Shown here: one piece after another, positions 1 to 30,066 of the stretch
How the letters are laid out: the number at the start of each line of letters is the position of its first letter
Numbering within the stretch: position 1 is the first letter of the stretch
The notes under the pieces: generated by a model
The model's database searches: none
The model's input: the letters and a program-made list of their open reading frames with translations, nothing else
What the model was told of the DNA's origin: nothing
From: an uncultured archaeon
GTDB lineage: Archaea > Iainarchaeota > Iainarchaeia > Iainarchaeales > Iainarchaeaceae
Assembly (NCBI GenBank): GCA_964577555.1
Contig: CAZNZM010000004.1
Coordinates: 55,300 to 87,299 of the forward strand
Direction of reading: 5' to 3'
Length of the DNA stretch: 32,000 nt
Translations under genes and position numbers: made by a program

Positions 1-1
1 C

Positions 2-181
2 TCAGCATACATGTGGAACAGCAAAGACAAAACATGCTGGATATCAAGCGGAACATACCCAAACTGCACAGCAACAAAAGTATCAGAAGTAACAGCAGCA
101 AATAAATGTTGCGAAGATAACATTCTTAGCTTGTGCTCAGAAACAGAAACAAGAAGTGAATATAGACACACCAAAATATAA
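2..181 (+). CDS. C-terminal fragment of a pilin-like protein (5' end outside window); tandem paralog of the next gene
   Basis: Frame 2 is open from the window edge to TAA at 179-181. Its translation ...YMWNSKDKTCWISSGTYPNCTATKVSEV... aligns with ...YIWEVQTKKCWKCVGTYPNCTVDSITAT... of ORF 226-567 (shared CW-x3-GTYPNCT). Confidence 0.5.
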   Translation, partial: SAYMWNSKDKTCWISSGTYPNCTATKVSEVTAANKCCEDNILSLCSETETRSEYRHTKI

Positions 182-225
182 ATAATTAAAACCCCAAAAA
201 AACAAAAAAAAGGCGAACAAAAAAA

Positions 226-567
226 ATGAACACAAAAGCACAAGGAGCACTAGAATACCTACTACTAATCGGAGGAGCAGTAGTAGTAGCAGCAATAGCA
301 GTAATAATACTGCTAAATATAAGTGAAACAAGCTCAAAAAGCACTGAAATCACCCAAAAAGCAAGCATTTGCACAAGGTTTTCAGCATTAGACGGCTTAA
401 ACAACTGCCAAGTAAAAAACCAAGCAGGATTAAACACTAATTATATTTGGGAAGTACAAACAAAAAAATGCTGGAAATGCGTAGGAACATATCCGAACTG
501 CACAGTAGATTCCATAACAGCCACAGAGTTTCCTGATTGCGGCGCAGGAAACGCAAAAAAAATATAA
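226..567 (+). CDS. Archaeal type IV pilin-like protein with class III signal peptide
   Basis: The N-terminus MNTKAQGALEYLLLIGGAVVVAAIAVIILL has a short basic leader, then KA/Q with Glu at +5 and a hydrophobic helix. The C-terminal region is Cys-containing. A prepilin peptidase gene lies 600 bp downstream. Confidence 0.75.
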   Translation: MNTKAQGALEYLLLIGGAVVVAAIAVIILLNISETSSKSTEITQKASICTRFSALDGLNNCQVKNQAGLNTNYIWEVQTKKCWKCVGTYPNCTVDSITATEFPDCGAGNAKKI

Positions 568-598
568 ATTAAGAAAAACAATTATACTAACGATTATT

Positions 599-769
599 AT
601 GGACACAAAAGCGCAAGTTTCATTGGAATATTTGCTAACAATAATGTTCGCCCTAATTTTGGTAATAGCTGTTACGATAATAGCAATGAACATTTCAGAC
701 GTGGCAGACAAAGCACAACTCAAAGTAATTGAAAACAAACAAAACACAATAGCAACTTTAATGGGATAA
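599..769 (+). CDS. Small (56 aa) class III signal-peptide / pilin-like protein, below the ORF-track size cutoff
   Basis: Hand translation from ATG 599 gives MDTKAQVSLEYLLTIMFALILVIAVTIIAMNISDVADKAQLKVIENKQNTIATLMG, with TAA at 767-769. It has the same TKAQ-x3-E-YLL leader as ORF 226-567. A TATA-like aatataaatt sits about 33 nt upstream. Confidence 0.6.
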   Translation: MDTKAQVSLEYLLTIMFALILVIAVTIIAMNISDVADKAQLKVIENKQNTIATLMG

Positions 770-1185
770 AACCTGCAAAAAAACTAAAATTACAAAATGA
801 AAAATTTCCAAAAAATGACAAAAAATTGGCTTTGGCAAAACAAAAGACAAAAAAATAACTGAATTAAAAAAAAAACAAATTCAAAATAAAAAAACGCCTG
901 ACAAAAAAATAATCCAGCAAAGCAAATAAAAAACGCCTAAAAAATTTTGTTTTGAAAAACAAGGCAAAAAAACTTGGCTAAGCAAAAAAAATGAAAATTG
1001 TCCCGCCAAAAAAAACAAAAAAGCTTGACATAACAAAATCAAAGACAAAAAAACTTCTAAAAATAGGTCAAAAAAAAGGCAAAATTAATTTTTTTTAGAA
1101 AGCAAATTAATAGTTGGCAACCAAAATAATAAAACAAAAATCATGACAAGACAATTGACAAAAATAAAAAATAATTTTTCAAAAT
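770..1185 (+). repeat. Poly-A-dominated intergenic island with anchor-motif copies and short internal repeats
   Basis: TTGGC-TTTGGC is at 826-836 (preceded by aaaaaatgacaaaaaa), TTGGCT at 974-979 and TTGGCA at 1114-1119. aaaaacgcct occurs twice (about 889 and 928), aaagacaaaaaaa twice (about 843 and 1041), and tcccgccaaaaaaaa is at 1002-1016. A rare T8 run is at about 1089-1096. Confidence 0.6.
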
Positions 1186-2352
1186 TTGATTTTAGCAATT
1201 AATAAAATAACATTACAATTTTTTTATCTAATGCTTGAAATAGTATTTTTTATAATAACATTACTTGGCCTTGCCATTGCATCTTACACTGACATAAAAC
1301 AAAGATTGGTTACAAACAACCTTGTTTATGCAATGGCTTTTTCCGGAATTTGCCTGAAACTCTTTGAAGCGATTTTAACCGAAAATTTCGAAACTTTCTT
1401 TTTTTCTGTTTTGGCTGGAGTTATTGGCTTTGGCTTGGCTTATGTATTGTGGAAGCTAGGAGTATGGGCAGGCGGAGATGTAAAACTCGTTACAGCAATA
1501 GCCGTTCTAAATCCGATGAATTACAGGGTAATTGGCAACACAATTGAAATAAACAACCAGTTATTTTCAACTTACAACATTCCCGTATTTTCAGCCACGC
1601 TGATAATTTATTCAGCCCTCCTGGCTATGCCGATAGGAATTTTAATGGTATTATCGGCTTCTCTTAAGGACAAAAAAGCACTTGAAAAAGTAAAAGAAAA
1701 AATAAGCAACAAATTTTGGAATTTAATACAAATAGCGATTATTATGTCTGTAGCAAAGCACTTGTTTCAAATTTATAAAATTTGGGAAGTTTGGACAATA
1801 ATTGTTTTATTGATTTTTTTATTCACGCCTAAAAATTTCAAAAATTACATTACAATCATTTCAACAATACTTGCACTTTTGCTCTTTGGCGAAAAATTTC
1901 TAATAGATGCGATTATTTACTCAATTCCAATAATGCTTCTTTACACCATGATTTCATTGTATAACGAAAGCAAAAACAAGGCTTTCAAGGAAGAAATACA
2001 TGTTTCAAAAATTTATGAAGGAGCAATACCTGACAATTATATTGTCATAAAAGACAAAAAACTGGAAGTTGTTGAAAAACTGAACATAAAAAGAGTTATT
2101 AATCACTTAATGAATAATAGAATTGCTGAGGCTATTGAAGAAATAAACCCAAAGGAAAAAGTTTTTGCAAGCCCGCTGCAAGCAGGCGGCCTTAGCGAAG
2201 AACAAGTCAAGGAGCTAAAACAAAAGGCTGAAAAAGGAATGGCGCCAAAAACAATTGTTGTAAAAAAAACAATGGCTTTCGTACCAACTATAATGATTGC
2301 ATACATAATTCTTCAAATCACAGGAGATATGCTATGGACAATAATATTTTAA
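1186..2352 (+). CDS. A24-family prepilin/preflagellin peptidase (FlaK/PibD/EppA-like) with a large soluble insertion
   Basis: The protein is polytopic. The first catalytic Asp context is IASYTDIKQR and the GxGD-type second site is WAGGDVKLVTAIAVLNP. A charged segment of about 120 aa precedes the last TM helix (KKTMAFVPTIMIAYIIL). The track start at 1186 is TTG; ATG at 1231 (MLEIVFF) is an alternative. Confidence 0.8.
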   Translation: MILAINKITLQFFYLMLEIVFFIITLLGLAIASYTDIKQRLVTNNLVYAMAFSGICLKLFEAILTENFETFFFSVLAGVIGFGLAYVLWKLGVWAGGDVKLVTAIAVLNPMNYRVIGNTIEINNQLFSTYNIPVFSATLIIYSALLAMPIGILMVLSASLKDKKALEKVKEKISNKFWNLIQIAIIMSVAKHLFQIYKIWEVWTIIVLLIFLFTPKNFKNYITIISTILALLLFGEKFLIDAIIYSIPIMLLYTMISLYNESKNKAFKEEIHVSKIYEGAIPDNYIVIKDKKLEVVEKLNIKRVINHLMNNRIAEAIEEINPKEKVFASPLQAGGLSEEQVKELKQKAEKGMAPKTIVVKKTMAFVPTIMIAYIILQITGDMLWTIIF

Positions 2353-2873
2353 AGAAAACAAAAGGCCAAGCCACAATGGAATTTCTTTTAACCCTCGTAA
2401 TAGGATTAATTTACATAGTAATTATTGTCCAACCAAACGCCGAAATTGCAAGCAAATCAATGGAAGACACTGCAAACATGGCAAAACTCAGGATTTCGGC
2501 TGACAAAATAATCCAAACACTAAAACACGTTTCAATTTCAGGAGAAGGGACAAAAGAAACAATCCAAATAGTCATTCCAAAAGATGCAAACATTACTTGT
2601 GGAACGTTTTATCCTGGACAAACCACTTCAAACCCGCAAGAACCCAATTCAATAAGATTTACTTACAAAACCAAATCAACTGATGCAACAGGGCCGTGTG
2701 AAATAGACTTTGATTATCCAAACGAAGGCAAATTATGCACAAAATTAATACAAGCAGGATTCACGTTTAAATGCGAAACACCAATAATAAGCATTCCGGG
2801 AATATACAAAGCAACAATACAAAAAACAAACGAAACGCCACCAGTCAAACTAAATTTCGAGCTGATAGAATGA
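2334..2873 (+). CDS. Pilin-like protein, class III signal peptide (KG/Q type)
   Basis: The leader is MDNNILKKTKGQATMEFLLTLVIGLIYIVIIV, with Q at +1 and E at +5 after the KG site. AGGAG lies 7 nt upstream of the ATG. The gene overlaps the peptidase 3' end by 19 nt. Confidence 0.7.
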   Translation: MDNNILKKTKGQATMEFLLTLVIGLIYIVIIVQPNAEIASKSMEDTANMAKLRISADKIIQTLKHVSISGEGTKETIQIVIPKDANITCGTFYPGQTTSNPQEPNSIRFTYKTKSTDATGPCEIDFDYPNEGKLCTKLIQAGFTFKCETPIISIPGIYKATIQKTNETPPVKLNFELIE

Positions 2874-3286
2874 ACAAAATAAAAGGACAAGCATCAGTGG
2901 AAATCGTGATAGGCTTCTCAATAGTCACAATGATTACAATACTGATTCTTTTCAAATGGCTTTCCGGAACAGAAGAAATAAACCAGACTGTCGGAGCAAG
3001 ATTAGCCACAATAAAATTAAACGACCTAAACTTTGATTCAAACAAATTCATGTTAAAAGGCTTTGAAAAAGAAATAATAAAATGCACAACACCAAGCGGT
3101 ACAGAAAAAATAAAAATAATGGCAACAATTTATCCAAACCCGAACGGAACAAATTTTGAAAATGAAATAGCAAACGAAATAAAAAACAAAATAAACCTAA
3201 TCACGGGAAAACCCCAAAACGAAATAGACATATACCTTAACGATCCAATAAAAGCACACCAAGACAAAGAAGCAGGATGCATATAA
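2870..3286 (+). CDS. Pilin-like protein, class III signal peptide
   Basis: The internal Met of ORF 2771-3286 gives MNKIKGQASVEIVIGFSIVTMITILILF (KG/Q, E at +5). ATG 2870 overlaps the upstream TGA (ATGA coupling). Confidence 0.65.
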   Translation: MNKIKGQASVEIVIGFSIVTMITILILFKWLSGTEEINQTVGARLATIKLNDLNFDSNKFMLKGFEKEIIKCTTPSGTEKIKIMATIYPNPNGTNFENEIANEIKNKINLITGKPQNEIDIYLNDPIKAHQDKEAGCI

Positions 3287-3290
3287 TTTG

Positions 3291-3320
3291 TTCGTCAATC
3301 AACGAATTTTAATGTTTTTC
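3291..3320 (+). terminator. Candidate terminator: short hairpin followed by oligo-T runs
   Basis: TTCGT (3291-3295) and ACGAA (3302-3306) form an inverted repeat with a 6-nt loop. It is followed by tttt and ttttt runs, which are rare on this T-poor strand, and lies just after the stop at 3286. Confidence 0.3.
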
Positions 3321-3336
3321 TGTATAAAATAAAAAC

Positions 3337-3693
3337 ATGCAAATAACACCAAACAAACTAACAACAACAGGGCTAATAATTGGAACAATCGGATTAATCG
3401 CACTAATACTTCTTATCCCTGAACCAACCCATCTAAAACCATACGAAATCACAAAAGAAAAAGAAAACCAAATAACCACAACAACAGGCACAATAACCAA
3501 CCTCACAATAAAAAACGGAAACGCGTTTTTCACAATAACAAGCCAAGGAAGCACAAAAGCATTCTTTTACAAACCAAACAAAGAACAAATACAACTGCTC
3601 AAAGAAGGAAAAAAAATCCAAGCAACCGGCAAAATAGCAATTTACAAAGGACAACCAGAAATAATAATCCAAAGAGTGATAGAAATTGATTGA
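3337..3693 (+). CDS. Membrane-anchored OB-fold (tRNA_anti-like) domain protein
   Basis: An N-terminal TM helix (GLIIGTIGLIALILLI) is followed by a pattern typical of small OB-fold domains: TGTITNLTIKNGNAFFTITSQGSTKAFFYK...GKKIQATGKIAIYKGQPEIIIQRVIEI. Confidence 0.45.
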   Translation: MQITPNKLTTTGLIIGTIGLIALILLIPEPTHLKPYEITKEKENQITTTTGTITNLTIKNGNAFFTITSQGSTKAFFYKPNKEQIQLLKEGKKIQATGKIAIYKGQPEIIIQRVIEID

Positions 3694-4849
3694 AGAAATT
3701 CTAATGCTAATAACAGGAATCATTGCAGGAACAATAACAGGCTTAATACCGGGATTGCACTCAAACACAATTGCACTTATAACAGCAACACTCCCATACG
3801 GAAATCCAATAAGCAAAATAATTTTCATCACAGCAATGGGAATAACACACTCAATAATAGAAACAATACCAACAATAATGCTCGGCGCCTCAAACGAAAA
3901 CACCATTCAATTGCTGCCAGGACACAAAATGCTGATGAAAGGACAAGGAAACGAAGCAATAATAACCAGCATAGCCGGAGCTCTTTTCACAATAATTTTC
4001 ACAGCACTTTTAACGCCAATAGTATTCACATTTGCAAAAGAATTCAATTGGATTCTGCCAATAACCATACCAGCAATAATATTTGCAATAGCAACTTTCA
4101 TGATAATAAAAGAAAAAAACAAAATAACAGCAACAATAATTTTCATAACAACCGCATTATATGGCTTTTTTCTTCTTGAATCCGGAATAAATGAAATAAT
4201 CTTCGCGTTAATAATAGGTTTTTACGCAATGCCTGGATTAATAGAAACAATAATAACAAAAACCGAAATACCAAAACAAAGAAAAAAAACAAAATTAAAA
4301 CTCAACCCATACTTTTCATTTTTAACAGCAATAATATCATCAATAACATCAATGCTCCCCGCACTTGGACCAACACACGCCGCCTTTATAGCAAACAGCC
4401 TCAAAGGAAAACTAACAACAAAAGAATACTTGATGTTAAGCGGCGGAATAAGCACAGGAAACCTCTTTTACAGCATATTAATGCTATATGCACTTGGAAA
4501 AACAAGGTCAGGAGTTTCAATTGCAATAGAAAAAATAATGCAACCAAACTTGGAACAAATAATACTTATTCTAGTTGCAGCATTATCAGCAGCAGGATTC
4601 GCCTGCGCAATAGCAACAAAACTCGGATTAAAAATATTCGAATTAATAAAAAAAATAAATTACAAAAAAATAACAATAACAGTACTCTTTTTATGCGCAA
4701 CAATAGTCGCAATATTTTCAGGAATTTTAGGATTAATAGCTTGCATTTCTGCAACAGCAATAGGCTTGGCAACCATCAAAGCCAAAATTTCAAGGGCACA
4801 CTGCATGGGTTTCCTGTTAGCACCATCAACCGCCTTCTACCTAAAATAA
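3686..4849 (+). CDS. Polytopic membrane protein, TctA/DUF112-like (COG1784-type)
   Basis: The protein has about 10 hydrophobic segments. The N-terminal GIIAGTITGLIPGLHSNT resembles the GxxxGxxPG(L/I) start of the TctA family, recalled from memory. It overlaps the upstream gene by 8 nt. Confidence 0.4.
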   Translation: MIEEILMLITGIIAGTITGLIPGLHSNTIALITATLPYGNPISKIIFITAMGITHSIIETIPTIMLGASNENTIQLLPGHKMLMKGQGNEAIITSIAGALFTIIFTALLTPIVFTFAKEFNWILPITIPAIIFAIATFMIIKEKNKITATIIFITTALYGFFLLESGINEIIFALIIGFYAMPGLIETIITKTEIPKQRKKTKLKLNPYFSFLTAIISSITSMLPALGPTHAAFIANSLKGKLTTKEYLMLSGGISTGNLFYSILMLYALGKTRSGVSIAIEKIMQPNLEQIILILVAALSAAGFACAIATKLGLKIFELIKKINYKKITITVLFLCATIVAIFSGILGLIACISATAIGLATIKAKISRAHCMGFLLAPSTAFYLK

Positions 4850-4904
4850 TCCAAACAGCAAAATAAACCGTTTTTTAAACATTAAAACACCAAAATAATA
4901 AACA

Positions 4905-5267
4905 ATGTACTATATCAAACGCACAACAGCAGAATCAATCATAATGGCTGCAAAAAACGTCTATCCAAAAGAATTTTTCTCAATGCTTGGCGGAAAAAAC
5001 AAAACAATAGACGAATTAGTAATAGTGCCAGCAATATTCGGAAACGACTCAGTAATATACGAACCTGAATATGTTCCAATAATGGACAGAATAATAGGCA
5101 CTGTTCACTCACACCCGACAAAAAACAACGAACCTTCAAACGAAGACATACAATCTTTTAGAAAAACCGGAAAAATACACATAATCATTTCATACCCTTA
5201 CAATTTAAATACGATGAAAGCCTTCGATAATAACGGAAAACAAGTAAAATTAGAAGTGATAGAATGA
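4905..5267 (+). CDS. JAB1/MPN/Mov34 (JAMM) metalloprotease domain protein
   Basis: The JAMM motif H-x-H-x7-S-x2-D is present as GTVHSHPTKNNEPSNEDI. An upstream Glu (YPKEFFSMLGG) is also consistent with the family. Confidence 0.75.
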   Translation: MYYIKRTTAESIIMAAKNVYPKEFFSMLGGKNKTIDELVIVPAIFGNDSVIYEPEYVPIMDRIIGTVHSHPTKNNEPSNEDIQSFRKTGKIHIIISYPYNLNTMKAFDNNGKQVKLEVIE

Positions 5268-5959
5268 AAGAACCAAAAAAACTAGTGTTGCTAAGACATG
5301 GAAAAACTGAATTCAACATTGAAAAAAAATTTTGCGGATGGACAGACATAGAACTTGGAAAAACAGGAGAAAAAGAAGCCAAAGAAGCCGGAAAATTGCT
5401 TGCAGAAAACAACTACACATTTGATGTGTTTTACACATCTTTTCTCAAAAGAGCAATACAAACAACATGGATAATACAACAACAAACCGACTTGATGTGG
5501 ACACCACTAATAACCACTTGGAGGCTAAACGAAAGACATTACGGAGCATTACAAGGAATAAAACACGAAGAAATGGAAAAAAAATACGGAAAAGAACAAG
5601 TATTCCTATGGAGAAGAAGCTACAAAACAAAGCCACCACAACTGGAAAAAACAGACCCAAGAAACCCTGCAAACGAAACCAAATACAAAAACCTCAAACC
5701 AACACAAATACCCTTAGGAGAAAGCCTTGAAGACACAGTCAAAAGAGTCATACCTTACTGGAAAAAAGAAATAGCCCCAAACATAAAAAAAGGCAAAAAA
5801 ATACTTATATCTGCACATGGAAACAGCATAAGAGCCCTTGTGAAATACATTGAAAACATACCTGACGACGAAATACCAAAAGTAGAAATACCAACAGCAA
5901 AACCAATAATATACGAATTAGACAACAACCTCAAACTAATAAAAAAATACGACTTATAA
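5264..5959 (+). CDS. gpmA: 2,3-bisphosphoglycerate-dependent phosphoglycerate mutase
   Basis: Matching motifs are LVLLRHGKTEFNIEKKFCGWTDIEL (the RHG catalytic His motif), RLNERHYGALQG, VFLWRRSYKTKPP and ISAHGNSIRAL. There is an ATGA overlap with the JAMM gene. Confidence 0.9.
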   Translation: MKEPKKLVLLRHGKTEFNIEKKFCGWTDIELGKTGEKEAKEAGKLLAENNYTFDVFYTSFLKRAIQTTWIIQQQTDLMWTPLITTWRLNERHYGALQGIKHEEMEKKYGKEQVFLWRRSYKTKPPQLEKTDPRNPANETKYKNLKPTQIPLGESLEDTVKRVIPYWKKEIAPNIKKGKKILISAHGNSIRALVKYIENIPDDEIPKVEIPTAKPIIYELDNNLKLIKKYDL

Positions 5960-6263
5960 AAAAAACAAATAAACCAAAAAAAAAGAAAAAAAAGCCACAA
6001 TTCAAAAAAAATAGTTGACACGCAAAAAAAGAAACGAGTTGGAAAAATAAAGACAAAAAAAATAGTTGAATTAAAAAAAAAAGCTAACCAAAACAAACAA
6101 CCAAACAAAAAAACCTTAAAAAAAATTAACACACAAAAATTTAATTAAAAAAAAACGAATACAAAAGAAAAAAATAATAAGCAAAGCACATTTGCAAAAC
6201 CGGTTATTTTAACAAAGCAGAACCAAACGCTAATTTTATTATAACAAAACACATATAGGTTTT
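5960..6263 (+). repeat. Poly-A-dominated intergenic island with internal short repeats
   Basis: caaaaaaaatagttga occurs twice (about 6003 and 6053), and there is a weak copy of the anchor motif (aagctaaccaaaacaaacaac). No ORF is supported. Confidence 0.5.
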
Positions 6264-6272
6264 TTGACTAAA

Positions 6273-6701: not shown

Positions 6702-6716
6702 AAGGAACGGATAAAA

Positions 6717-11254: not shown

Positions 11255-11305
11255 CAAACCAAAAAAGCAAAAAAGTGTTCTATACAAAAAATGCAAAATA
11301 AAACA

Positions 11306-13157: not shown

Positions 13158-13179
13158 CCTTTCAACAAAACCAATAATC

Positions 13180-17794: not shown

Positions 17795-17877
17795 AATAAC
17801 CAATTTATTAATAAAACAGAAAAATAATAAAACAATTGCTTTAAAAAAAATGACGAAACACGGCAAAGAGGCATTAA

Positions 17878-18468: not shown

Positions 18469-18475
18469 AAAAAAC

Positions 18476-20523: not shown

Positions 20524-20572
20524 AAAACCACCAAAAAATGTATTTATAATAATGAATTCATAATATATAAAG

Positions 20573-22259: not shown

Positions 22260-22271
22260 GTGCAAAGACAA

Positions 22272-22835: not shown

Positions 22836-22864
22836 AAAATAAAAAAACTACCAAAGTGGTCAAA

Positions 22865-23758: not shown

Positions 23759-23973
23759 AAAAAAGAATTTAAAATCCAAAAAAATATTTCATTAAAAAAA
23801 AGACAAACAAACAATTTGAAATTTCAAAAAAACTTGGCAAAAAAAACACCCGCCAAAAAAAATACAAAAAAAGAATTTAATTAAAAAAAATAATTCGAAT
23901 TGGCTTGCAAAACAAACAACAAAAAAACATGCCTCAAAAAAAAGATGAAAAAAAACAAATTAAAACTAAAAAG
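23759..23973 (+). repeat. Poly-A-dominated intergenic island flanking tRNA-Arg (3' side of the tRNA)
   Basis: TTGGCA is at 23834-23839 and TTGGCTTGC at 23900-23908, followed by aaaacaaacaacaaaaaaa. A cacccgccaaaaaaaa sub-motif is also seen at 1002-1016. Confidence 0.6.
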
Positions 23974-24048
23974 CGGACCCGAGGGGATTCGAACCCCCGA
24001 CCTTACGCTCCGAAGGCGTCTGCTCTATCCTGGCTGAGCTACGGGCCC
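23974..24048 (-). tRNA. tRNA-Arg (anticodon TCG), no encoded CCA
   Basis: The reverse complement GGGCCCGTAGCTCAGCCAGGATAGAGCAGACGCCTTCGGAGCGTAAGGTCGGGGGTTCGAATCCCCTCGGGTCCG folds as a cloverleaf. The acceptor is GGGCCCG/CGGGTCC, the D stem GCTC/GAGC, the anticodon loop CTTCGGA and the T arm GGGGG-TTCGAAT-CCCCT. Confidence 0.85.
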
Positions 24049-24207
24049 AAAAAAATCAAAACAAACAAAAATAAAAGTAAAAACACTTTAAAAAACGAAA
24101 AAACAAAGAAAAACATGAAACTTGGCTCAAAAAAAGACAAAAAAAGCCAGTTATCAACCTTTTTAAAACTTGCCAAACAATGAATAGTAAAAAAAAGGTG
24201 TCAATTA
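24049..24207 (+). repeat. Poly-A-dominated island on the 5' side of tRNA-Arg
   Basis: TTGGCTCAA is at 24122-24130, followed by an A-run. The Lys-rich ORF 23905-24183 spans this island and is antisense to the tRNA. Confidence 0.5.
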
Positions 24208-24360
24208 ATGAAAACATGCATTACAACAAACAAAATATTGACAGACGACTTTATAGAATTCAAATGCCCTGAATGCGGCACTAAAATAGCAAGAAGCATT
24301 TTGGCAAGAAAAAAAAGCTTAGAATATACTTGCAAAGAATGCGGATTCAAAGGACCATAG
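24208..24360 (+). CDS. Small Zn-ribbon protein (COG2888/DUF1610-like, translation-associated)
   Basis: Hand translation gives MKTCITTNKILTDDFIEFKCPECGTKIARSILARKKSLEYTCKECGFKGP, with TAG at 24358-24360. AGGTG lies 8 nt upstream. It sits immediately upstream of EF-1beta, the recalled conserved neighbourhood. Confidence 0.6.
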   Translation: MKTCITTNKILTDDFIEFKCPECGTKIARSILARKKSLEYTCKECGFKGP

Positions 24361-24371
24361 AAGGACTCGCC

Positions 24372-24635
24372 ATGCCAAGCAAAACAATGCTAATCATAAG
24401 AGTAAAACCAGAAGAAATGGAAAAAATAGACAAAATAATAGAATCAATAAAAAAAATAAAAACTGGAGAAGTAAGAGAAGTCAGAAAAGAGCCAATAGGA
24501 TTCGGAATAGAACTTATAAAAGCAGGAATACTAGTGCCATCAGAAGACGAAACAATGCCAGAAAAAGTCATAAAAGAAATAACAAAAATCAAAGGCGTTG
24601 AAGAAGCAGAAGTAGAAGGAATGACCCTTTTATAA
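24372..24635 (+). CDS. ef1b: Translation elongation factor aEF-1 beta
   Basis: The internal Met of ORF 24330-24635 gives an 87-aa protein. It contains IIRVKPEEMEKIDKI...EVRKEPIGFGIELIKAGILVPSEDE...ITKIKGVEEAEVEGMTLL, which matches the archaeal EF-1beta pattern (EEPIAFGL...I.GV...EV). Confidence 0.8.
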   Translation: MPSKTMLIIRVKPEEMEKIDKIIESIKKIKTGEVREVRKEPIGFGIELIKAGILVPSEDETMPEKVIKEITKIKGVEEAEVEGMTLL

Positions 24636-24655
24636 ATCACAAAAAAAACAGACAC

Positions 24656-24667
24656 TTAAAATTATAA
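24656..24667 (+). promoter_or_regulatory. TATA-like box upstream of rad50
   Basis: ttaaaattataa is centred about 29 nt upstream of ATG 24691. Confidence 0.35.
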
Positions 24668-24690
24668 CACCTTATTCAAAGCAATAATTT

Positions 24691-26748
24691 ATGATTAAAA
24701 TACTGGAACTTGAAAACTGGAAAACACACAAAAAAACCCGCCTAGAATTCGAAAAAGGAACAAACGTAATAGTAGGAAAAATGGGAAGCGGGAAATCATC
24801 AATACTTGACGCAATCTCCTTTGCACTATATGGCACATTTCCGTCATTAGTAGCAAAAAAAATAACACTTGAAGAAACAATGATGGCAAAACCCACAAAA
24901 CAAGACATAACAAAAGTAAAACTAATATTCGACTACAACGGCAAAGAATACGAAGTAGAAAGAATAATAAAAAGAAACGGAACCAACGAAGGCTCTCTCA
25001 GAGAATCGGGAAAACTTATTGCGGGGCCAAAAACAAGCGACATAACAAAAAAAATTTCCGAAATAATAGAATCAAACTACGACCTGTTCAGCAGAGCAAT
25101 ATACTCCGAACAAAACCAAATAGACTTCTTCCTAAAAATGACGCCAGCACAAAGAAAAGAAAAACTCGACGAATTACTGGGCTTGGACAAATACGAAAAA
25201 GTAAGATCAAACGCATCCACACTAGCCACCAGAATAAAAAAAATCGCAGAAGACAAGAAAAAAATACTTGAAGACCAAAAAAAGAAAAACAACCCAAACC
25301 AAATAACAGAATATGAAAAACGAATAAATGAAAAAAAAACAGAACTTGAAAGAATAGAAAAATCAATACAACAAACAGAAACAACACTAAAACAAAAGGA
25401 AACAACACTAAAAAAACTTGAAGAAACTGAAAGATTATTTAAGACACTCAAAGAAACAGAAATAAGAGAAAAATCCAAGTTGGAATCAATAATAGAACAA
25501 ATAGAAGCAGGAAAGAAAAAAACAGAAAAAATAAACCCGGAAACAATAAACAAAAAAATCACAGAACTGCAAAACCAACTAACAACAGAAGAAGAAAACA
25601 AAAAAAAATTAGAAAACGAAAAAAAAGAACAAGAAAAAAAAATAACAAACTCAAAAGAAAAAAAAGCAGCTGCAAACAGCATGCTCAACCTAAACACTAA
25701 AAATTCAACAAACATTGCAAGCCTAAAAGCAAATTGCCCAATATGCAGAAAACCACTGACAGAACACGACAAAGAAAAACTTTCAAAAGAAATGAAGGAA
25801 GAACAGGAAAACCTGATAAAACAAATAAAAGAAATAGAAAAAGAAATAGCAAATACTTCAACAAAAATAAACGAAATAGAAAAAAAAATAGCAAACACTG
25901 AACAAAACAAAGAAACACTGCAAAAAGAGATAATTGAAAACAAAAGACTATTAGAAATAGCAAACGAAATAACAACAAAAGAAAAACAAAAAACAATCAT
26001 AGAAGAAAACCTAAAGAAAAACTCGCAAACCATTGCAGAATTAAATTTTGACGAAAAACAACTCAAAGAAGCAAGAAACGAATATTACGCATTGAGAGAA
26101 AAAATGACAAAAGAAAGAACAACAGCCATTTCAACAAAAGACATTATAAAAGAACTTGAAGAAACATACAAAAGAATAAAAGACACACAAAAACAAATGA
26201 TTGAACTTGAAAATCAGATAAAAGAATACGAAACAGCAGCAGAAAAAATGACAATATTCACAAGCGCAACAATGGCAACACAAGCAGAGTTAAGAAATCT
26301 AATGGTGGAAAACATCAACATGGCAATGGAAGAACTCTGGCCGAAAATCTATCCTTACGGCGATTTCTCGCAAATAAAAATAATAGTCAAAGAAGGAAGC
26401 TACGAAATAATGGCGAAACAAAAAAACAATGAATGGACAAGAATAGAAGGAATACTATCAGGCGGAGAAAGAAGCGCAGCAGCAATAACAATAAGAATAG
26501 CGCTTTCCCTGGTGCTTACCCAAAACCTTGGCTGGATAATGCTGGACGAACCAACACACAACCTTGATGCAAACTCAGTAAACAGGCTTGCAGAAACCCT
26601 TGGAACATACCTCCCACAAATCATTGAACAAATTTTCATAATAACACACGACAAAGAAATGGAAAACGCTGCATCTGGAAAATTATACATTTTTGAAAGA
26701 GAAAAAGAAGAAGACGCTCCAACAAAAATAAACAACATAGAAAAATAA
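24691..26748 (+). CDS. rad50: Rad50 DNA double-strand break repair ATPase (short coiled-coil form)
   Basis: Walker A is VGKMGSGKSSILDAISFALYG. A long K/E-rich coiled coil carries the CxxC zinc hook ANCPICRKPL. The signature is LSGGERSAAAITIRIALS, Walker B is IMLDEPTHNLD and the H-loop is FIITHD. Confidence 0.9.
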   Translation: MIKILELENWKTHKKTRLEFEKGTNVIVGKMGSGKSSILDAISFALYGTFPSLVAKKITLEETMMAKPTKQDITKVKLIFDYNGKEYEVERIIKRNGTNEGSLRESGKLIAGPKTSDITKKISEIIESNYDLFSRAIYSEQNQIDFFLKMTPAQRKEKLDELLGLDKYEKVRSNASTLATRIKKIAEDKKKILEDQKKKNNPNQITEYEKRINEKKTELERIEKSIQQTETTLKQKETTLKKLEETERLFKTLKETEIREKSKLESIIEQIEAGKKKTEKINPETINKKITELQNQLTTEEENKKKLENEKKEQEKKITNSKEKKAAANSMLNLNTKNSTNIASLKANCPICRKPLTEHDKEKLSKEMKEEQENLIKQIKEIEKEIANTSTKINEIEKKIANTEQNKETLQKEIIENKRLLEIANEITTKEKQKTIIEENLKKNSQTIAELNFDEKQLKEARNEYYALREKMTKERTTAISTKDIIKELEETYKRIKDTQKQMIELENQIKEYETAAEKMTIFTSATMATQAELRNLMVENINMAMEELWPKIYPYGDFSQIKIIVKEGSYEIMAKQKNNEWTRIEGILSGGERSAAAITIRIALSLVLTQNLGWIMLDEPTHNLDANSVNRLAETLGTYLPQIIEQIFIITHDKEMENAASGKLYIFEREKEEDAPTKINNIEK

Positions 26749-27216
26749 AATGAATAAAACGGCTCACCAAAAAAACGCCAAACAAAACAAAAGACTGCTC
26801 AAAATAAAAAAAATACAAAAAAATAGCCAAACACAAAAAAACTATAAAATCAAAAAAACGGCTCACAAAACAAACAACAAAAAAAGTAAATTCCAAATAA
26901 AAAAACAAACCACTCTACAAAAAAATGACAAAAAAAACGGCTCACTAAAAAAATTAAAAAAAACGTTCAAAAAAAAATCATGAAAAAAAATTGCCTAAAA
27001 AAAAACGGCTCGGAAAAAAACAAAATTTCAAACAAAAAAATACCGAACAAAAAAATAATTCAAAAAAAATGACAAAAAGTGGCTAAAACAAAAAAAACAA
27101 AATTAATTTTAAAAAAATAATTAAAAAAAAATTCTAAAAAAAACAAATCACAAAAAAAACACGCTTAAAAAAATACTTGGATCGCAAAAACAAAAAAAAT
27201 AAAAACAACAAAAAAA
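26749..27216 (+). repeat. Roughly 470 bp degenerate tandem array of A-run plus anchor-motif units between convergent genes
   Basis: CGGCTCAC is at 26760, 26859 and 26938; CGGCTCGG at 27006; GTGGCTA at 27079; TTGGATCGC at 27177. Spacing is about 70-100 bp. aaaatgacaaaaa modules lie at about 26924 and 27066, and aaaaataatt modules are also present. Confidence 0.7.
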
Positions 27217-27405
27217 TTACTTAGACTCCGCCTTTTTTCTGGTAAGAAAACCAGCAATAAGATTTCTGACAGTCTTACTCATGTCCATTCCCAAAGAATC
27301 AATAAAACGCTTATTAGCCTCGAAATCAGTTGTTATCTTATCAGGATAAGTTGCAAGCAAAATATTTGCCTTGCTTTTAATATTCTTAGGAACAGCTTTA
27401 CCCAT
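27217..27405 (-). CDS. rps17e: Ribosomal protein eS17 (S17e)
   Basis: MGKAVPKNIKSKANILLATYPDKITTDFEANKRFIDSLGMDMSKTVRNLIAGFLTRKK matches the archaeal S17e pattern (DFE-NK...SK-RN-IAGY-TR). ATG 27405 overlaps the rpoK stop (TGATG). Confidence 0.85.
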   Translation of the reverse strand: MGKAVPKNIKSKANILLATYPDKITTDFEANKRFIDSLGMDMSKTVRNLIAGFLTRKKAESK

Positions 27406-27611
27406 CAATTCACCTCGACCTTCTCAACCCTTCCATCAGGATACTCCCTTACAACAGCCAAAGGAATAACCTTTTTCTCAAATTCAGCCTTTGCAATATC
27501 AAAAGGAGTTTCATTTTTATGAATTTTCACAAGAGGAGGAGCTCCAAGAGATATTTGAAGAGCCCTGGCACTAATCAAACGCGTAACTTCAAACCTTGTC
27601 AACCTTGCCAT
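27405..27611 (-). CDS. rpoK: DNA-directed RNA polymerase subunit K (Rpo6/RpoK)
   Basis: The start is taken at MARLTRFEVTRLISARALQISLGAPPLV, the conserved LTRFE...RALQIS.GAP motif. IPLAVVREYPDG also matches. Confidence 0.85.
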   Translation of the reverse strand: MARLTRFEVTRLISARALQISLGAPPLVKIHKNETPFDIAKAEFEKKVIPLAVVREYPDGRVEKVEVN

Positions 27612-27798
27612 AAAAACACCTTCTTCAAAATAAGCAAACTCGCATAATCTTGTATCTTGTATAATCACGCACACAAAACATTAAAAAAGATGATTATAAA
27701 AGCACAAAACAGCAAAAAAAACCATTTAAACTAAAAAAAACCAAAAAAAATTAAAAAAAAATAGCCATGCAAATTCAAAAAAAAACACAAATCAGCTA

Positions 27799-29283
27799 TC
27801 AAACCCAGCCACGAACCTCCAAAAGCCCCTTTTCAAGGCGATAAATCTCGGAAAGCTTTTTCAAAACAGAAAGCACAGCACCCTTTCCAACCAATATTTT
27901 TGAATCACTAGCAGAACCAGAACGACAACCAGAACAAACAACCGAACGCTCAACCTCCTTTAAAACAGATGAAGAAAAAGCGTCAACCGAAAAAGCAACA
28001 GATTCCATAAAAAAACCACTCTCACGAGAAGACAACAAAAAAGGCAAAGAACCAAGAATATCAAGACACGCATGCAAACAAGACTTGGCTAACAAAAAAC
28101 CAGAACTCAATTCCAACGCTTGCGAATAAAAAACACCATTAGAAGCAATCGTTGAAACACTAAGACAATCAATAAAATAATTAGCATTCAAAACACAACC
28201 CCTCAACTTTTCAATTTCAACCGACAAAACACTCCGAGACTTAAAACAACTCCAATTCATGGAAGAAACCCCAATTATAAAGCCAGCACCCTGCTCCTGA
28301 ACAGAAATTGCGTCAGGCAAAAGCAAATCACAAACATTGTTCCTAAAAAAAGGGCCACAAGGAAAAAAATCAAAAGAATATTCAAGCTTTCTTTCCAACC
28401 TAGAAGCCTTAAAATCATGCGACTCGTGAAAACCTAAAGCCCAAGACTTTGAAATTGAATTAAAAAAGAAACCATCTTTAAGAAACCTTACCTTCACAAG
28501 AGAAGAAGGCAAAACATTTTGAGCATCAACCGAATCTGGCTTGCAACAAAAACAATTAACCTTGTCAAGACCCAAATTCACATTAGGAAGAGAAATAATC
28601 GCCGACACCAAACGAGAAAAATTAATCTCAGCAGAACCAAAAACCTTTGAAAATCTCTTTTTAAACGAAACAAATTTGGCTTCAAAAGAAAAACCAGAAG
28701 CAAAAAAAACATTTTCAAGAAAAATCACGGCGCGAGACCTGCCGACAGAAAAACGGGAAAACAAAGGAAATTTAAGTAAATTAGAATAAACCACAAGCTC
28801 AAAAAAGTGACGAAGATTCTTATCCTTTGAATCGCCAAAAAGCAATAATAAATCAGAAGCCAATCCAACAAAGTCATTATTCATGACAAAAAGAGGAAAA
28901 CAAACAACTTCATCATCAAAAACAAACAAATCAAAATAACTCCAACCCATTGAAACAAGAAACTGACGTTCAGGTTCTATTATACCAACCTTAAAACAAA
29001 AAAAAGATTCAAGACAATTAGCGGCTGATTTCAAATCCTCAAAAGAATCAAACTTAAGACAAGCATTTGAACCGGAAAAATAAACATTCCTAGGAGAAAC
29101 ACAAGCACACCGCAAAACCTCAATAAAATCCTCTTCAGAAAGCCCATTCAACGGAAAAAACAACCTTGGAAAATACTCAAAAACACGTTCAACCTTGCCG
29201 CTTCTGGACAAAAAAACAACCTTTATCGAAGACCTACCATCATAAATAACATCATACAAAAAATAACAATTGTTTGGGAGCAT
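27799..29283 (-). CDS. Large Cys/Phe-rich hypothetical protein; weak ordered resemblance to the N-terminal/exonuclease/motif A part of family B DNA polymerases
   Basis: This is an intact 494-aa ORF from ATG 29283; the track start 29349 is TTG. Ordered segments are FLYDVIYDG..IKVVFL..GKVERVFEYFPRLFFPL, IIEPERQFLVSMGW, FVFDDE, GFSFEAKF, EYSFD and LDILGSLPF. No KxxxNSxYG or DTDS motif is present. See findings. Confidence 0.45.
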   Translation of the reverse strand: MLPNNCYFLYDVIYDGRSSIKVVFLSRSGKVERVFEYFPRLFFPLNGLSEEDFIEVLRCACVSPRNVYFSGSNACLKFDSFEDLKSAANCLESFFCFKVGIIEPERQFLVSMGWSYFDLFVFDDEVVCFPLFVMNNDFVGLASDLLLLFGDSKDKNLRHFFELVVYSNLLKFPLFSRFSVGRSRAVIFLENVFFASGFSFEAKFVSFKKRFSKVFGSAEINFSRLVSAIISLPNVNLGLDKVNCFCCKPDSVDAQNVLPSSLVKVRFLKDGFFFNSISKSWALGFHESHDFKASRLERKLEYSFDFFPCGPFFRNNVCDLLLPDAISVQEQGAGFIIGVSSMNWSCFKSRSVLSVEIEKLRGCVLNANYFIDCLSVSTIASNGVFYSQALELSSGFLLAKSCLHACLDILGSLPFLLSSRESGFFMESVAFSVDAFSSSVLKEVERSVVCSGCRSGSASDSKILVGKGAVLSVLKKLSEIYRLEKGLLEVRGWV

Positions 29284-29345
29284 GAAAAAGCAACAAAACC
29301 CAAAATTTAAATGCTTTCCAAGGAGTTGAATGCCGGTGCAAAAAT

Positions 29346-29981
29346 TCAAATTTGTTTTTTAAGAGGCCATTTCAAATTTTTATAATGAACCTTTTTACTT
29401 TGCAAAACATTCAATAAAACAGGCACCACAGAAACACCAATTATCAACAATATTACAACAGTCAAAAACTCTGAAGAATCAGGAAATAAAACGCCAAAAA
29501 TAAAACCGGCAGAAATCATTACAGAAGCCCAAAAAAAACCGCCAACAACATTATAAACCAAAAAAACATGATAATCCATTCGCCCAATACCTGCAACAAT
29601 AGGAGCAAAAGTCCTGACAACAGGAACAAACCTAGCCAAAACAATAGCAATCTTGCCATGTTTAGCATAAAAATCCTCAGCCTCCCTAATATGCACAGGA
29701 TCCCTAAAAAAATCACCACTTTTAGTAAAAAACCTGCGCCCAAACTTGTTGCCACTCCAATAACCTACCTGATCACCAAGAACAGCGGAAATAGTAACAC
29801 CCAACAACAAAAACCAATAATCAAAAAAACCCTGCCTTGCAAGAAGCCCAGCAGTAAACAAAAGAGAATCCCCGGGCAAAAAGAAACCAAAAAAAAGCCC
29901 GCTTTCCGCAAAAACTATTAAAAAAATCCCAACATAACTAAAATTCAACAGCAAAGATTCAAGAGAACCAAACAAAACCAT
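29346..29981 (-). CDS. dedA: DedA / VTT-domain membrane protein
   Basis: The DedA signature is YVGIFLIVFAESGLFFGFFLPGDSLLFTAGLLA...GDQVGYWSGNKFGRRFF...HGKIAIVLARFVPVVRTFAPIVAG. ATG 29981 is preferred over TTG 30044. Confidence 0.85.
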   Translation of the reverse strand: MVLFGSLESLLLNFSYVGIFLIVFAESGLFFGFFLPGDSLLFTAGLLARQGFFDYWFLLLGVTISAVLGDQVGYWSGNKFGRRFFTKSGDFFRDPVHIREAEDFYAKHGKIAIVLARFVPVVRTFAPIVAGIGRMDYHVFLVYNVVGGFFWASVMISAGFIFGVLFPDSSEFLTVVILLIIGVSVVPVLLNVLQSKKVHYKNLKWPLKKQI

Positions 29982-30066
29982 TAGAATAAAAAACAATGAT
30001 TTATTTAAAAAAACAATCAGAACAAAAAAAACAATTCTAACCAACTAATTTTGAAAAAAAAATATA

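What the first reader, a model, noticed from the sequence alone, without database searches (positions are those of the whole stretch)
1..30050. Orientation-independent strand asymmetry strong enough to split the proteome into two amino-acid dialects
Across about 30 kb the + strand is A-rich, T-poor and has C above G, whichever strand the genes are on. I hand-counted single 60-nt lines. Line 13561-13620 (a + strand gene) gives A32 C12 G9 T7. Line 8401-8460 (a minus-strand gene) gives A27 T14 C13 G6. Line 12001-12060 (a minus-strand gene) gives A19 T20 C15 G6. As a result, + strand proteins are K/N/E/I/T/Q-rich (Pelota, Rad50, CCA, Elp3). Minus-strand proteins, including soluble conserved enzymes (ABCE1, the AsnB-like enzyme, the FlaI-like ATPase, ORF 27799-29283), are F/L/V/S/G/C-rich. 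Conserved motifs remain readable in both sets. Strand-driven amino-acid usage is established for replication-skewed bacteria such as Borrelia, where the leading strand is G+T-rich. Here the G+T-rich strand is the minus strand, yet about 25 of 35 genes in the skewed block lie on the A+C-rich strand. That is the opposite of the usual gene co-orientation, and I do not know of it as a described feature of archaeal genomes.
Basis: partly seen in the sequence, partly recalled or inferred. Interest (0 to 1): 0.7.

Follow-up and report, generated by a model that had tools for sequence, protein, structure and literature searches.

The report
Extreme strand asymmetry in DPANN archaeon
One DNA strand of this archaeal chromosome segment is about two-thirds adenine at freely evolving sites whichever way the genes point, an asymmetry as strong as in animal mitochondria, so the same protein family is written in different amino acids depending on which strand encodes it.

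Summary
In 1-30050 the + strand is A 46.8 / T 20.0 / C 19.7 / G 13.5 %. At fourfold sites the + strand is 64-69 % A for genes on either strand, and intergenic DNA is 58 % A. Two-fold sites show A:G about 93:7 and C:T about 70:30 on the + strand. That is the signature of deamination of the minus strand, as in vertebrate mtDNA. Plus and minus proteins differ sharply: V x3, F x2, S x2 against T x0.33 and I x0.47. Cys and Gly do not differ.

Orthologues that sit on the opposite strand in relatives switch dialect, so the strand is the cause. The block does not end at 30050. The polarity holds to about 53 kb, and a further 7 kb leftward in a sister lineage. Positions 30-32 kb and 1.2-2.35 kb are low-skew islands, probably recent imports.

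The organism belongs to Candidatus Iainarchaeum (DPANN). Milder skew of the same polarity runs through the genus.

Best explanation: replication-linked, strand-specific mutation pressure. Which strand is leading is unresolved. I found no published description, and recent work says archaea lack such skews.

The parts
1..32000 (.). Chromosome segment whose + strand is A- and C-rich and whose minus strand is T- and G-rich, independent of gene orientation. The same polarity continues beyond the window to about 53 kb.
8039..9466 (-). AsnB-like amidotransferase in the 'T dialect'. Fourfold sites are about 78 % skewed to T on the coding strand. FLVCWGSY .52.
11306..13084 (-). ABCE1 (RLI), encoded on the T-rich strand here and in every relative examined. 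V 11.3 % and T 1.3 %, against 7.4-8.5 % and 2.4-2.6 % in the weakly skewed low-GC relatives L010, L011 and L020.
14219..14584 (-). Endonuc_Holl-family gene, T dialect.
14648..14989 (-). 113-aa conserved hypothetical gene, T dialect.
16991..17794 (-). 267-aa secreted or surface protein, the most extreme T dialect (FLVCWGSY .61).
18949..20586 (-). FlaI/T2SSE-type ATPase, T dialect.
27217..27674 (-). Ribosomal protein S17e and RNA polymerase subunit Rpo6/K. Synonymous sites are T-skewed, but protein composition is largely held by constraint.
27799..29283 (-). 494-aa hypothetical protein, T dialect (FLVCWGSY .60; fourfold sites A .71 on the + strand).
29346..29981 (-). DedA/VTT membrane protein, T dialect.
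3686..5959 (+). TctA-like membrane protein, JAB/MPN protein and GpmA, all in the 'A dialect'. The orthologues lie on the T-rich strand in relative L015 (JAB and GpmA also in L018) and there carry the T dialect.
9716..11254 (+). DUF4139 protein, A dialect. Its orthologues are on the T-rich strand in L015 and L018.
13180..14217 (+). Pelota, A dialect (V 1.2 %, I 11.9 %, K 16.8 %). It stays on the A-rich strand in all relatives.
15096..16781 (+). Elp3, A dialect. Its orthologues are on the T-rich strand in L015 and L018.
20573..26748 (+). CCA-adding enzyme, LemA, HtpX, aS21, EF-1beta and Rad50, all A dialect. Fourfold AT skew is +0.68 to +0.79.
1186..2352 (+). Low-skew island 1: prepilin/preflagellin peptidase (Peptidase_A24). 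Fourfold AT skew is only +0.13 and the amino-acid usage is that of unskewed relatives. It is also unskewed in the sister lineage.
30067..31833 (.). Low-skew island 2: orf193 (minus strand) and NurA (+ strand). Fourfold AT skew is +0.32 and +0.26, and fourfold sites are richer in G+C. The closest NurA (79 % aa identity) lies on the T-rich strand of a 48 % GC relative.
23973..24048 (-). tRNA-Arg(TCG), the only structural RNA gene in the window.

Best explanation
The window is ordinary chromosome of an uncultured DPANN archaeon related to Candidatus Iainarchaeum. It carries ribosomal proteins, a tRNA, an RNA polymerase subunit and translation factors.

Its two DNA strands experience very different mutation pressure, and the difference is tied to the strand itself, not to transcription. 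The minus strand behaves as if it is the one damaged while single-stranded. C goes to T and A goes to G by hydrolytic deamination. Every base tends to be replaced by T, as if adenine were inserted opposite damaged or non-instructive template bases. The + strand therefore accumulates A, and C at pyrimidine sites.

The most likely source is replication: one parental strand, the lagging-strand template, is exposed. The segment would then lie within one replichore, and the pressure has been stable long enough to saturate silent sites. It spills into first and second codon positions, so genes on the A-rich strand encode I/T/K/N/Q/E-rich proteins and genes on the T-rich strand encode V/F/S/L/R-rich proteins. 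Codon use splits the same way: NNC/NNA against NNT/NNG. Genes that change strand, or arrive from elsewhere, are gradually rewritten.

Shown: strand-level, orientation-independent asymmetry; its effect on proteins; its conservation and polarity across relatives; an asymmetric substitution pattern between sister lineages.

Inferred: the chemical cause, the link to replication, and that the minus strand has leading-strand sequence so that forks would move right to left through the window. I hold that last step at only about even odds.
For: 1. Silent-site composition is the same on the + strand for genes of both orientations and for intergenic DNA.
2. Two-fold sites give A:G about 93:7 at purine sites but C:T about 70:30 at pyrimidine sites of the + strand, in a 33 % GC genome. 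Strand-specific transitions G>A and T>C on + can explain this; these are C>T and A>G on minus.
3. I compared the window with a sister lineage at 88.6 % nt identity over 1325 shared fourfold sites. On the + strand, A/G differences number 100 against 44 C/T, and A/C differences 89 against 25 G/T. Complementary classes would be equal under strand symmetry.
4. Natural experiment. GpmA, TctA, JAB, DUF4139, Elp3 and the prepilin peptidase are on the A-rich strand here. They are on the T-rich strand in relative L015, and all but TctA also in L018. An AsnB-like homologue (44 % identity, possibly a paralogue) shows the reverse. Composition follows the strand in each case, and weakly skewed relatives fall in between.
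5. Polarity relative to ABCE1 and DnaG is the same in all Iainarchaeum relatives, with a graded strength. The strand component of fourfold AT skew runs from about 0.05-0.4 in most relatives (near zero in three) to about 0.7 in the window, its sister, L015 and L018.
6. Polarity is uniform over about 53 kb of this contig, plus 7 kb further left in the sister.
7. L015 and L018 keep the full skew although most local genes there lie on the T-rich strand. That excludes a transcription-domain cause.
8. The same sequence was assembled independently from four samples. The skew is also present in a 2013 single-cell genome of Ca. Iainarchaeum andersonii.
Against: - No origin, orc1/cdc6 gene, terminus or sign switch was seen in about 60 kb, so the link to replication is by exclusion and analogy only.
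- If the T/G-rich strand has leading-strand sequence, as the bacterial rule and the deamination model imply, then 57 of 70 genes to 53 kb would be transcribed head-on to replication. These include S19e, L31e, L18a, eIF6, SRP54 and FtsY. No prokaryote is known to do this, so either the assignment or the co-orientation rule fails here.
- The strand component of GC skew at fourfold sites is weak and not consistent among relatives.
- Rates derived from the sister comparison assume stationarity and reversibility, so they are not independent of composition.
- Transversions outnumber transitions (ts/tv 0.75). Simple deamination does not explain that; it needs an additional A-insertion or oxidative component.
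Confidence: 0.7

Rival explanations
1. Same strand-specific mutation pressure, but the A-rich strand is the leading strand. Genes are then co-oriented with replication as usual. The asymmetry would come from the enzymes, not from single-strand damage: for example different polymerases or primer-derived DNA on the two strands, one of which over-inserts dAMP. The sign of the neutral AT skew would then be the reverse of the bacterial rule.
For: 81 % of genes to 53 kb, and most ribosomal-protein and translation genes seen, lie on the A-rich strand. The same bias holds in weakly skewed relatives of both the ABCE1 and DnaG neighbourhoods. Strong gene-strand bias marks the leading strand in all prokaryotes studied (established knowledge). 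GC skew at fourfold sites is weak and inconsistent, so 'G>C means leading' cannot be applied here.
Against: The transition pattern at two-fold sites (C>T and A>G on the minus strand) is the textbook signature of single-strand deamination, which marks leading-strand sequence in bacteria. At neutral sites T>A on the leading strand holds even in Firmicutes (Charneski et al. 2011, PMC3174206, title and abstract). L015 and L018 have most local genes on the T-rich strand.
Confidence: 0.35
2. The chromosome is replicated asymmetrically, either unidirectionally or by a strand-displacement mode that leaves one parental strand single-stranded for long periods as in vertebrate mitochondria. The whole genome would then have one A/C-rich and one G/T-rich strand.
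For: The magnitude and the base pattern (A+C-rich against G+T-rich; deamination signature at two-fold sites) match mtDNA rather than any bacterial replichore. No polarity switch was seen in about 60 kb. Whole-chromosome one-strand G/C disparity has been reported in small-genome CPR bacteria and attributed to unidirectional replication (PMC7143001).
Against: 60 kb is too short to tell. A related Diapherotrites genome (Ca. Forterrea) shows a normal two-armed cumulative GC skew with an origin at cdc6 (PMC5905446). No unusual replication genes were seen: DnaG, an OB/SSB-like protein, Hjc and NurA-HerA-Rad50 are ordinary.
Confidence: 0.15
3. Transcription-associated asymmetry. Because most genes are on the + strand, pervasive read-through transcription would impose one polarity on the whole region, including embedded antisense genes.
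For: Gene orientation is strongly biased to the + strand.
Against: Known transcription-associated mutation enriches T and G on the coding strand, the opposite of what is seen (established knowledge). L015 and L018 have the same or stronger skew with most local genes on the T-rich strand. The difference between + and minus genes at fourfold sites is small: about 0.04 in AT skew.
Confidence: 0.03
4. Selection rather than mutation: purine loading of mRNAs, or selection on protein composition.
For: Coding strands of AT-rich genomes are usually A-rich.
Against: Minus-strand genes have T-rich, A-poor coding strands. Intergenic DNA and fourfold sites carry the strongest skew. Orthologues change composition when they change strand.
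Confidence: 0.02
5. Artefact: chimeric assembly, strand-biased sequencing chemistry, or mis-called shadow ORFs.
For: None found.
Against: Near-identical sequence (>=99.9 %) comes from three JGI metagenomes and one SRA run assembled independently, including across the 30-kb junction. The skew is shared by relatives from other studies and by a single-cell genome. Genes on both strands have Pfam hits and 50-70 % identical orthologues.
Confidence: 0.01

Closest known systems
Vertebrate mitochondrial DNA heavy/light strand asymmetry, including ND6 encoded on the opposite strand
   Same: One strand is A+C-rich and the other G+T-rich, independent of gene orientation. There is a deamination signature (C>T and A>G on one strand) at two-fold sites. 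Silent-site skews reach about 0.7. Most genes have the A+C-rich strand as sense strand. Amino-acid composition depends on the strand; the effect on mitochondrial proteins is documented in PMC2779903 (listed).
   Different: This is a cellular archaeal chromosome, with at least 53 kb of uniform polarity on a contig of 119,670 bp. The main axis is A against T, with many transversions (ts/tv 0.75), rather than G against C. The replication mode is unknown.
Leading/lagging-strand codon and amino-acid usage in Borrelia burgdorferi and other strongly skewed bacteria such as Lawsonia (PMC2671203)
   Same: Strand-specific mutation bias is the main axis of codon and amino-acid variation. Val and Phe are favoured on the G+T-rich strand.
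   Different: The size is many-fold larger. Typical bacterial GC skew is about 2.5 % (SkewDB). Here overall AT skew is 40 % and fourfold AT skew is 67-75 %. In bacteria most genes lie on the G+T-rich strand; here most lie on the A+C-rich strand. The domain is Archaea.
Whole-chromosome G/C disparity in CPR bacteria of order UBA1400 (Ca. Chazhemtobacterium Ch65, Collierbacteria, Beckwithbacteria; PMC7143001)
   Same: A small-genome, uncultured, probably symbiotic lineage. One strand is compositionally different over long distances regardless of gene strand, and the cause is unexplained.
   Different: There C is 29.8 % against G 15.0 %, with no A/T disparity. Here the disparity is mainly A/T. That case is bacterial; this one is archaeal. 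There a closed genome shows no switch; here only about 60 kb is seen.
Firmicute purine asymmetry (A>T on the leading strand)
   Same: A>T on the strand that carries most genes.
   Different: In Firmicutes the A excess comes from gene orientation and selection and vanishes when strand bias is removed (PMC3174206; SkewDB). Here it is strongest at fourfold and intergenic sites and is present in antisense genes.
Bacterial-type cumulative GC skew in Ca. Forterrea (Diapherotrites) and some Euryarchaeota
   Same: The same phylum-level group, with evidence that a single origin can leave a strand signature in DPANN archaea.
   Different: That is an ordinary, weak GC skew. No amino-acid effect or AT skew was reported.

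Membership tests
Replication-associated strand compositional asymmetry (leading/lagging type) | The skew persists at neutral sites (fourfold, intergenic) in genes of both orientations. | tested here: met
   the + strand is 64-69 % A at fourfold sites of both gene sets and 58 % A in intergenic DNA
Replication-associated strand compositional asymmetry (leading/lagging type) | Polarity switches at the replication origin and terminus. | not testable with these tools
   No switch and no orc1/cdc6 in about 60 kb. The rest of the 119,670-bp contig and of the genome could not be fetched.
Replication-associated strand compositional asymmetry (leading/lagging type) | Genes that change strand take on the composition of the new strand. 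| tested here: met
   six families, plus an AsnB-like homologue showing the reverse, compared with L015 and L018.: the NurA island is at an intermediate stage.
Replication-associated strand compositional asymmetry (leading/lagging type) | The G+T-rich strand is the leading strand and carries most genes. | tested here: inconclusive
   81 % of genes are on the A+C-rich strand. Which strand is leading is unknown.
Transcription-associated strand asymmetry | The sign of the skew follows the transcribed strand of each gene. | tested here: not met
   the coding-strand fourfold AT skew is +0.67 in + genes and -0.75 in minus genes, which is the same + strand polarity
Mitochondrial-type asymmetry from strand-displacement replication | Deamination signature on one strand (C>T and A>G) at transition-only sites. 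| tested here: met
Mitochondrial-type asymmetry from strand-displacement replication | The skew forms a gradient proportional to the time each site spends single-stranded, and one polarity covers the whole genome. | not testable with these tools
   Only about 60 kb is available. Per-gene values are flat within noise.
Horizontally acquired compositional island | The composition is atypical relative to the rest of the genome and is confined to a mobile or foreign segment. | tested here: not met
   The skewed state is the norm over at least 53 kb of core genes. The exceptions are the unskewed genes 1186-2352 and 30067-31833.

The most novel reading that the evidence does not exclude
A clade of Iainarchaeota replicates, or fails to repair, its chromosome so asymmetrically that one strand is kept in a mitochondrion-like, long-lived single-stranded or damage-prone state. 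Possible causes are unidirectional or strand-displacement replication, or loss of the archaeal uracil/hypoxanthine read-ahead and base-excision safeguards. The result would be the strongest violation of Chargaff's second rule known in a cellular chromosome, and a proteome written in two codon and amino-acid dialects. Most genes, including ribosomal-protein genes, might then be oriented head-on to replication.
Probability: 0.25. Interest if true: 0.85.

Novelty: new variant of a known kind. Interest (0 to 1): 0.72.

Why it matters
Strand compositional asymmetry is the main computational handle on prokaryotic replication. Current surveys conclude that archaeal chromosomes obey the second parity rule and lack strand-specific mutational skews (PMC12999951). 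This lineage is a clear counter-example, with an effect more than ten times the usual bacterial one.

- It offers a natural experiment on how far mutation pressure alone can rewrite conserved proteins. The same enzyme family exists in an A dialect, a T dialect and an unskewed form within one genus.
- It warns of a practical hazard for phylogeny, binning, gene calling and homology searches in DPANN genomes, through compositional attraction and shadow ORFs.
- It makes replication direction, origin position and repair capacity of an uncultured archaeon directly testable from metagenomic data.
- If most genes prove to be head-on to replication, or replication proves to be unidirectional, a general rule of genome organisation would have an exception.

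Tried and rejected
- I looked for the source contig and tried to walk it. The window matches JGI contigs of about 64 kb and an NCBI contig of 119,670 bp. Using homologues as stepping stones I reached about 53 kb, and 7 kb left of the window in a sister lineage.
- The one metagenome scan, with DnaG as query, did not return the contig itself. It returned three higher-GC relatives with moderate A>T on the DnaG coding strand, which I did not analyse by gene orientation.
- I searched all fetched loci for an Orc1/Cdc6-like Walker-A protein and found none.
- The strains from the four samples are >=99.9 % identical, so no within-population SNP spectrum could be derived. I used the sister lineage instead.
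- I considered and rejected a transcription-driven cause, purine loading or selection, a chimera at 30 kb, a sequencing artefact, and mis-called ORFs (see rivals).
- I considered whether the low-skew genes mark an origin or the end of the block. This is rejected because the skew resumes with the same sign on both sides.
- An ABCE1 tree groups the window with L015 and L018. All three proteins share the T dialect, so compositional attraction cannot be excluded and I do not rely on the tree.
- Literature searches for a prior description found none.

Full report

Yes. The three hand-counted lines are exact. Over 1-30050 the + strand holds A 14060, T 6016, C 5912 and G 4062, giving AT skew +0.40 and GC skew -0.19. 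All 1-kb bins have positive AT skew and negative GC skew.

I defined 22 + genes and 10 minus genes in the block from ORFs. The JGI gene calls and their Pfam hits on near-identical contigs confirm them.

- Fourfold sites of + genes are A .640, C .146, G .087, T .126.
- Fourfold sites of minus genes, read on their own coding strand, are T .693, G .109, C .099, A .099.
- The + strand is therefore 64-69 % A at neutral sites whichever way the gene points. Intergenic DNA is A .583, T .178.

**2. Two codon dialects and the mutational signature**

At two-fold sites + genes use NNC (73 %) and NNA (95 %). Minus genes use NNT (92 %) and NNG (67 %).

Put on the + strand, purine sites are about 93 % A, but pyrimidine sites are about 70 % C, in a 33 % GC genome. 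Only strand-asymmetric transitions give this: G>A and T>C on the + strand, which are C>T and A>G on the minus strand. That is the classical signature of hydrolytic deamination of one strand, as on the vertebrate mitochondrial heavy strand.

Fourfold sites also need transversions toward A on the + strand, because purines make up about 75 %.

A sister lineage (JGI 3300010938, 88.6 % nt identity) gave 1325 shared fourfold sites, of which 336 differ.

| Difference class on the + strand | Count |
|---|---|
| A/G | 100 |
| C/T | 44 |
| A/C | 89 |
| G/T | 25 |
| A/T | 50 |
| C/G | 28 |

- Complementary classes (A/G with C/T, A/C with G/T) would be equal under strand symmetry. They are not.
- Transversions are unusually common (ts/tv 0.75).
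- Read with the composition, and assuming stationarity, every change that creates A on the + strand is 2-7 times faster than its complement. Such changes create T on the minus strand.
- This fits adenine being inserted opposite damaged minus-strand bases: uracil, 8-oxoG and abasic sites. The chemistry is inference.

**3. Amino-acid dialects**

| Measure | + proteins | minus proteins | Mann-Whitney p |
|---|---|---|---|
| F+L+V+C+W+G+S+Y | .297 | .486 | 1.4e-4 |
| K+N+T+Q+E+I+P+H+D | .596 | .391 | 1.8e-5 |

- Minus proteins have more V (x3.1), F (x2.2), S (x1.9), R (x1.8), D (x1.5) and L (x1.3).
- They have less T (x0.33), I (x0.47) and Q (x0.52), and also less K, N and E.
- Cys and Gly do not differ.
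- The first principal component of amino-acid usage carries 45 % of the variance and separates the strands, with S17e the only minus protein on the other side.

**4. Control for protein family: a natural experiment**

ABCE1-guided retrieval from GTDB genomes gave 12 further Iainarchaeum-like loci at 64-71 % ABCE1 identity. Two of them share the extreme skew: L015 (JAWANB010000002.1, GC 33 %) and L018 (JBBISX010000012.1, GC 38 %). Their fourfold sites are 57-77 % T on the ABCE1 coding strand for genes of both orientations.

Local rearrangements have put Elp3, GpmA, JAB, DUF4139 and the prepilin peptidase on the T-rich strand in both relatives, and TctA in L015. The AsnB-like homologue in L015 (44 % identity, possibly a paralogue) is on the A-rich strand. 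All of this is the opposite of the window. ABCE1 stays on the T-rich strand, and Pelota and HtpX stay on the A-rich strand.

Composition follows the strand, with weakly skewed relatives of the same GC content in between. Each cell gives F+L+V+C+W+G+S+Y / K+N+T+Q+E+I+P+H+D.

| Protein | On A-rich strand | Weakly skewed relative (L010) | On T-rich strand |
|---|---|---|---|
| GpmA | .29/.61 (window) | .38/.52 | .45/.43 (L015) |
| TctA | .36/.50 (window) | .49/.40 | .65/.27 (L015) |
| AsnB | .30/.59 (L015) | .43/.45 | .52/.36 (window) |

Pelota has 0.3-1.9 % Val in the three skewed genomes, against 5.5-8 % elsewhere. The strand, not the protein family, sets the dialect.

**5. Extent and the '30050 boundary'**

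The window is near-identical (>=99.9 %) to JGI contigs of about 64 kb from two samples, to shorter contigs from a third JGI sample and from SRA run SRR12686701, and to proteins on an NCBI contig of 119,670 bp.

- Beyond 30 kb the skew dips to between +0.05 and +0.26 for about 3 kb. It then returns to about +0.5 and stays there to at least about 53 kb.
- In the sister lineage the same polarity continues about 7 kb to the left of window position 1.
- Gene orientation by the JGI calls is 26 on + and 10 on minus in 1-30050, and 57 against 13 to 53 kb. The + genes include S19e, L31e, L18a, eIF6, FtsY and SRP54.

**6. Low-skew islands**

Three genes are outliers.

| Gene | Position | Fourfold AT skew |
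|---|---|---|
| Prepilin peptidase | 1186-2352 | +0.13 |
| orf193 | 30067-30648 | +0.32 |
| NurA | 30742-31833 | +0.26 |

- NurA (and the sister's peptidase) is richer in G+C at fourfold sites, and all three have near-unskewed amino-acid usage.
- The peptidase is equally unskewed in the sister (fourfold A .28, T .34). That state therefore predates the split of the two lineages.
- The closest NurA outside the population (79 % aa identity) sits in a 48 % GC relative, on the T-rich strand. The neighbouring antisense gene there shows the same polarity.
- The simplest reading is recent import or allele replacement from GC-richer relatives, followed by rewriting that is still in progress. This is inferred, not shown.

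**7. Phylogenetic spread**

The strand component of fourfold AT skew has the same sign relative to ABCE1 in most Iainarchaeum relatives and is near zero in three of them (L009, L016, L019). It grades from about 0.05-0.4 to about 0.7.

Around DnaG, the single-cell genome of Ca. Iainarchaeum andersonii (AQRS01000040, GC 48 %) has fourfold A .28 and T .12 in + genes, and A .26 and T .10 in minus genes, with no GC skew.

The A/T asymmetry is therefore old and conserved in polarity. It becomes compositionally overwhelming in low-GC members. The GC-skew component is inconsistent among relatives.

**8. Mechanism and what remains open**

- Transcription cannot be the cause. The sign is wrong, and L015 and L018 keep the skew with most local genes on the T-rich strand.
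- Selection cannot be the cause. The skew is strongest at silent and intergenic sites.
- Artefact is excluded by independent assemblies and by the relatives.
- A chromosome-level, replication-linked asymmetry is the remaining known kind. No origin, orc1/cdc6 or polarity switch was found.

By the deamination model, and by the bacterial and euryarchaeal rule, the minus strand (T/G-rich) has leading-strand sequence. About 80 % of genes would then be head-on to replication. By the gene-orientation rule the A-rich strand is leading, and the neutral skew has the reverse sign. Either outcome is unusual. A unidirectional or strand-displacement mode is a third possibility.

**9. Comparison with the literature**

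- SkewDB gives about 2.5 % as the typical bacterial GC skew. It shows that Firmicute TA skew vanishes without gene-strand bias.
- A 2026 survey concludes that archaeal chromosomes obey the second parity rule and have little strand-specific mutational skew.
- Ca. Forterrea, in the same phylum, has an ordinary cumulative GC skew with an origin at cdc6.
- The nearest analogue in a cell is the G/C disparity of some CPR bacteria, which has no A/T component.
- Eight searches found no description of this A/T asymmetry, or of its proteome effect, in Iainarchaeota or any other archaeon. The library lacks most subscription journals, so absence is not proof.

**10. Verdict**

This is a new, extreme variant of a known phenomenon, in a domain where it was thought to be nearly absent.

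Noticed in passing
window + strand at 9530, 16869, 16921, 22001, 22115, 26761, 26860, 26939; also L031 at 2476, 6251, 6454, 6489, 19519 and L030 at 236, 6688, 6794: The motif GGCTC[AG]C, usually embedded in A-runs (AAAAAAA-N-GGCTCRC-AAAA-C-AAAC), occurs 16 times on the A-rich strand and never on the other. In the window there are 8 copies against 1.8 expected, all intergenic. They mostly lie just downstream of + genes (Elp3, CCA, Rad50) and fall in different reading frames of the small ORFs called there. The motif is specific to this lineage and its sister. It could be a terminator substitute, a binding site or a polar chromosome motif.
   Followed up: partly
window 1-32000, + strand: There are only 68 runs of T>=5 against 558 runs of A>=5 on the + strand. 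Few + genes are followed by an oligo-T tract, which is the usual archaeal terminator signal. Termination of the majority strand's genes may therefore rely on something else.
   Followed up: partly
window 1186-2352; L034 7530-8651: The prepilin/preflagellin peptidase is compositionally foreign in both this lineage and its sister: unskewed, with GC-richer fourfold sites in the sister copy. Yet it sits in the ancestral syntenic position. This looks like an orthologous replacement from a less skewed relative.
   Followed up: partly
window 30067-31833; L035 1-2016: The orf193-NurA island has an intermediate skew. The closest NurA (79 % aa identity) is in a 48 % GC relative whose NurA coding strand is the T-rich one. 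The block has changed strand context, or was imported, and is only partly rewritten.
   Followed up: partly
L015 1-21761 and L018 1-11297 compared with window 1-21000: Gene order around ABCE1 is conserved between the window and the weakly skewed relatives. In the two other strongly skewed genomes it is broken by many small inversions, which put most local genes on the T-rich strand.
   Followed up: partly
L033 11930-13619: In the sister lineage Elp3 is called as two overlapping ORFs (361 and 219 aa). This suggests a frameshift, a sequencing error or a pseudogene.
   Followed up: no
L031 2629-3333 (about 34.1-34.8 kb in window-like coordinates): The AlaX-like editing protein appears as two adjacent ORFs: tRNA-synt_2c fragment of 87 aa and tRNA_SAD of 140 aa. 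In Ca. Iainarchaeum andersonii it is a single 235-aa gene (L028 1265-1972).
   Followed up: no
window 24691-26748 and 30742-33530: Rad50 is separated from NurA-HerA by about 4 kb of unrelated genes on the other strand. No Mre11 was seen in the 53 kb examined, unlike the usual archaeal herA-mre11-rad50-nurA cluster.
   Followed up: no
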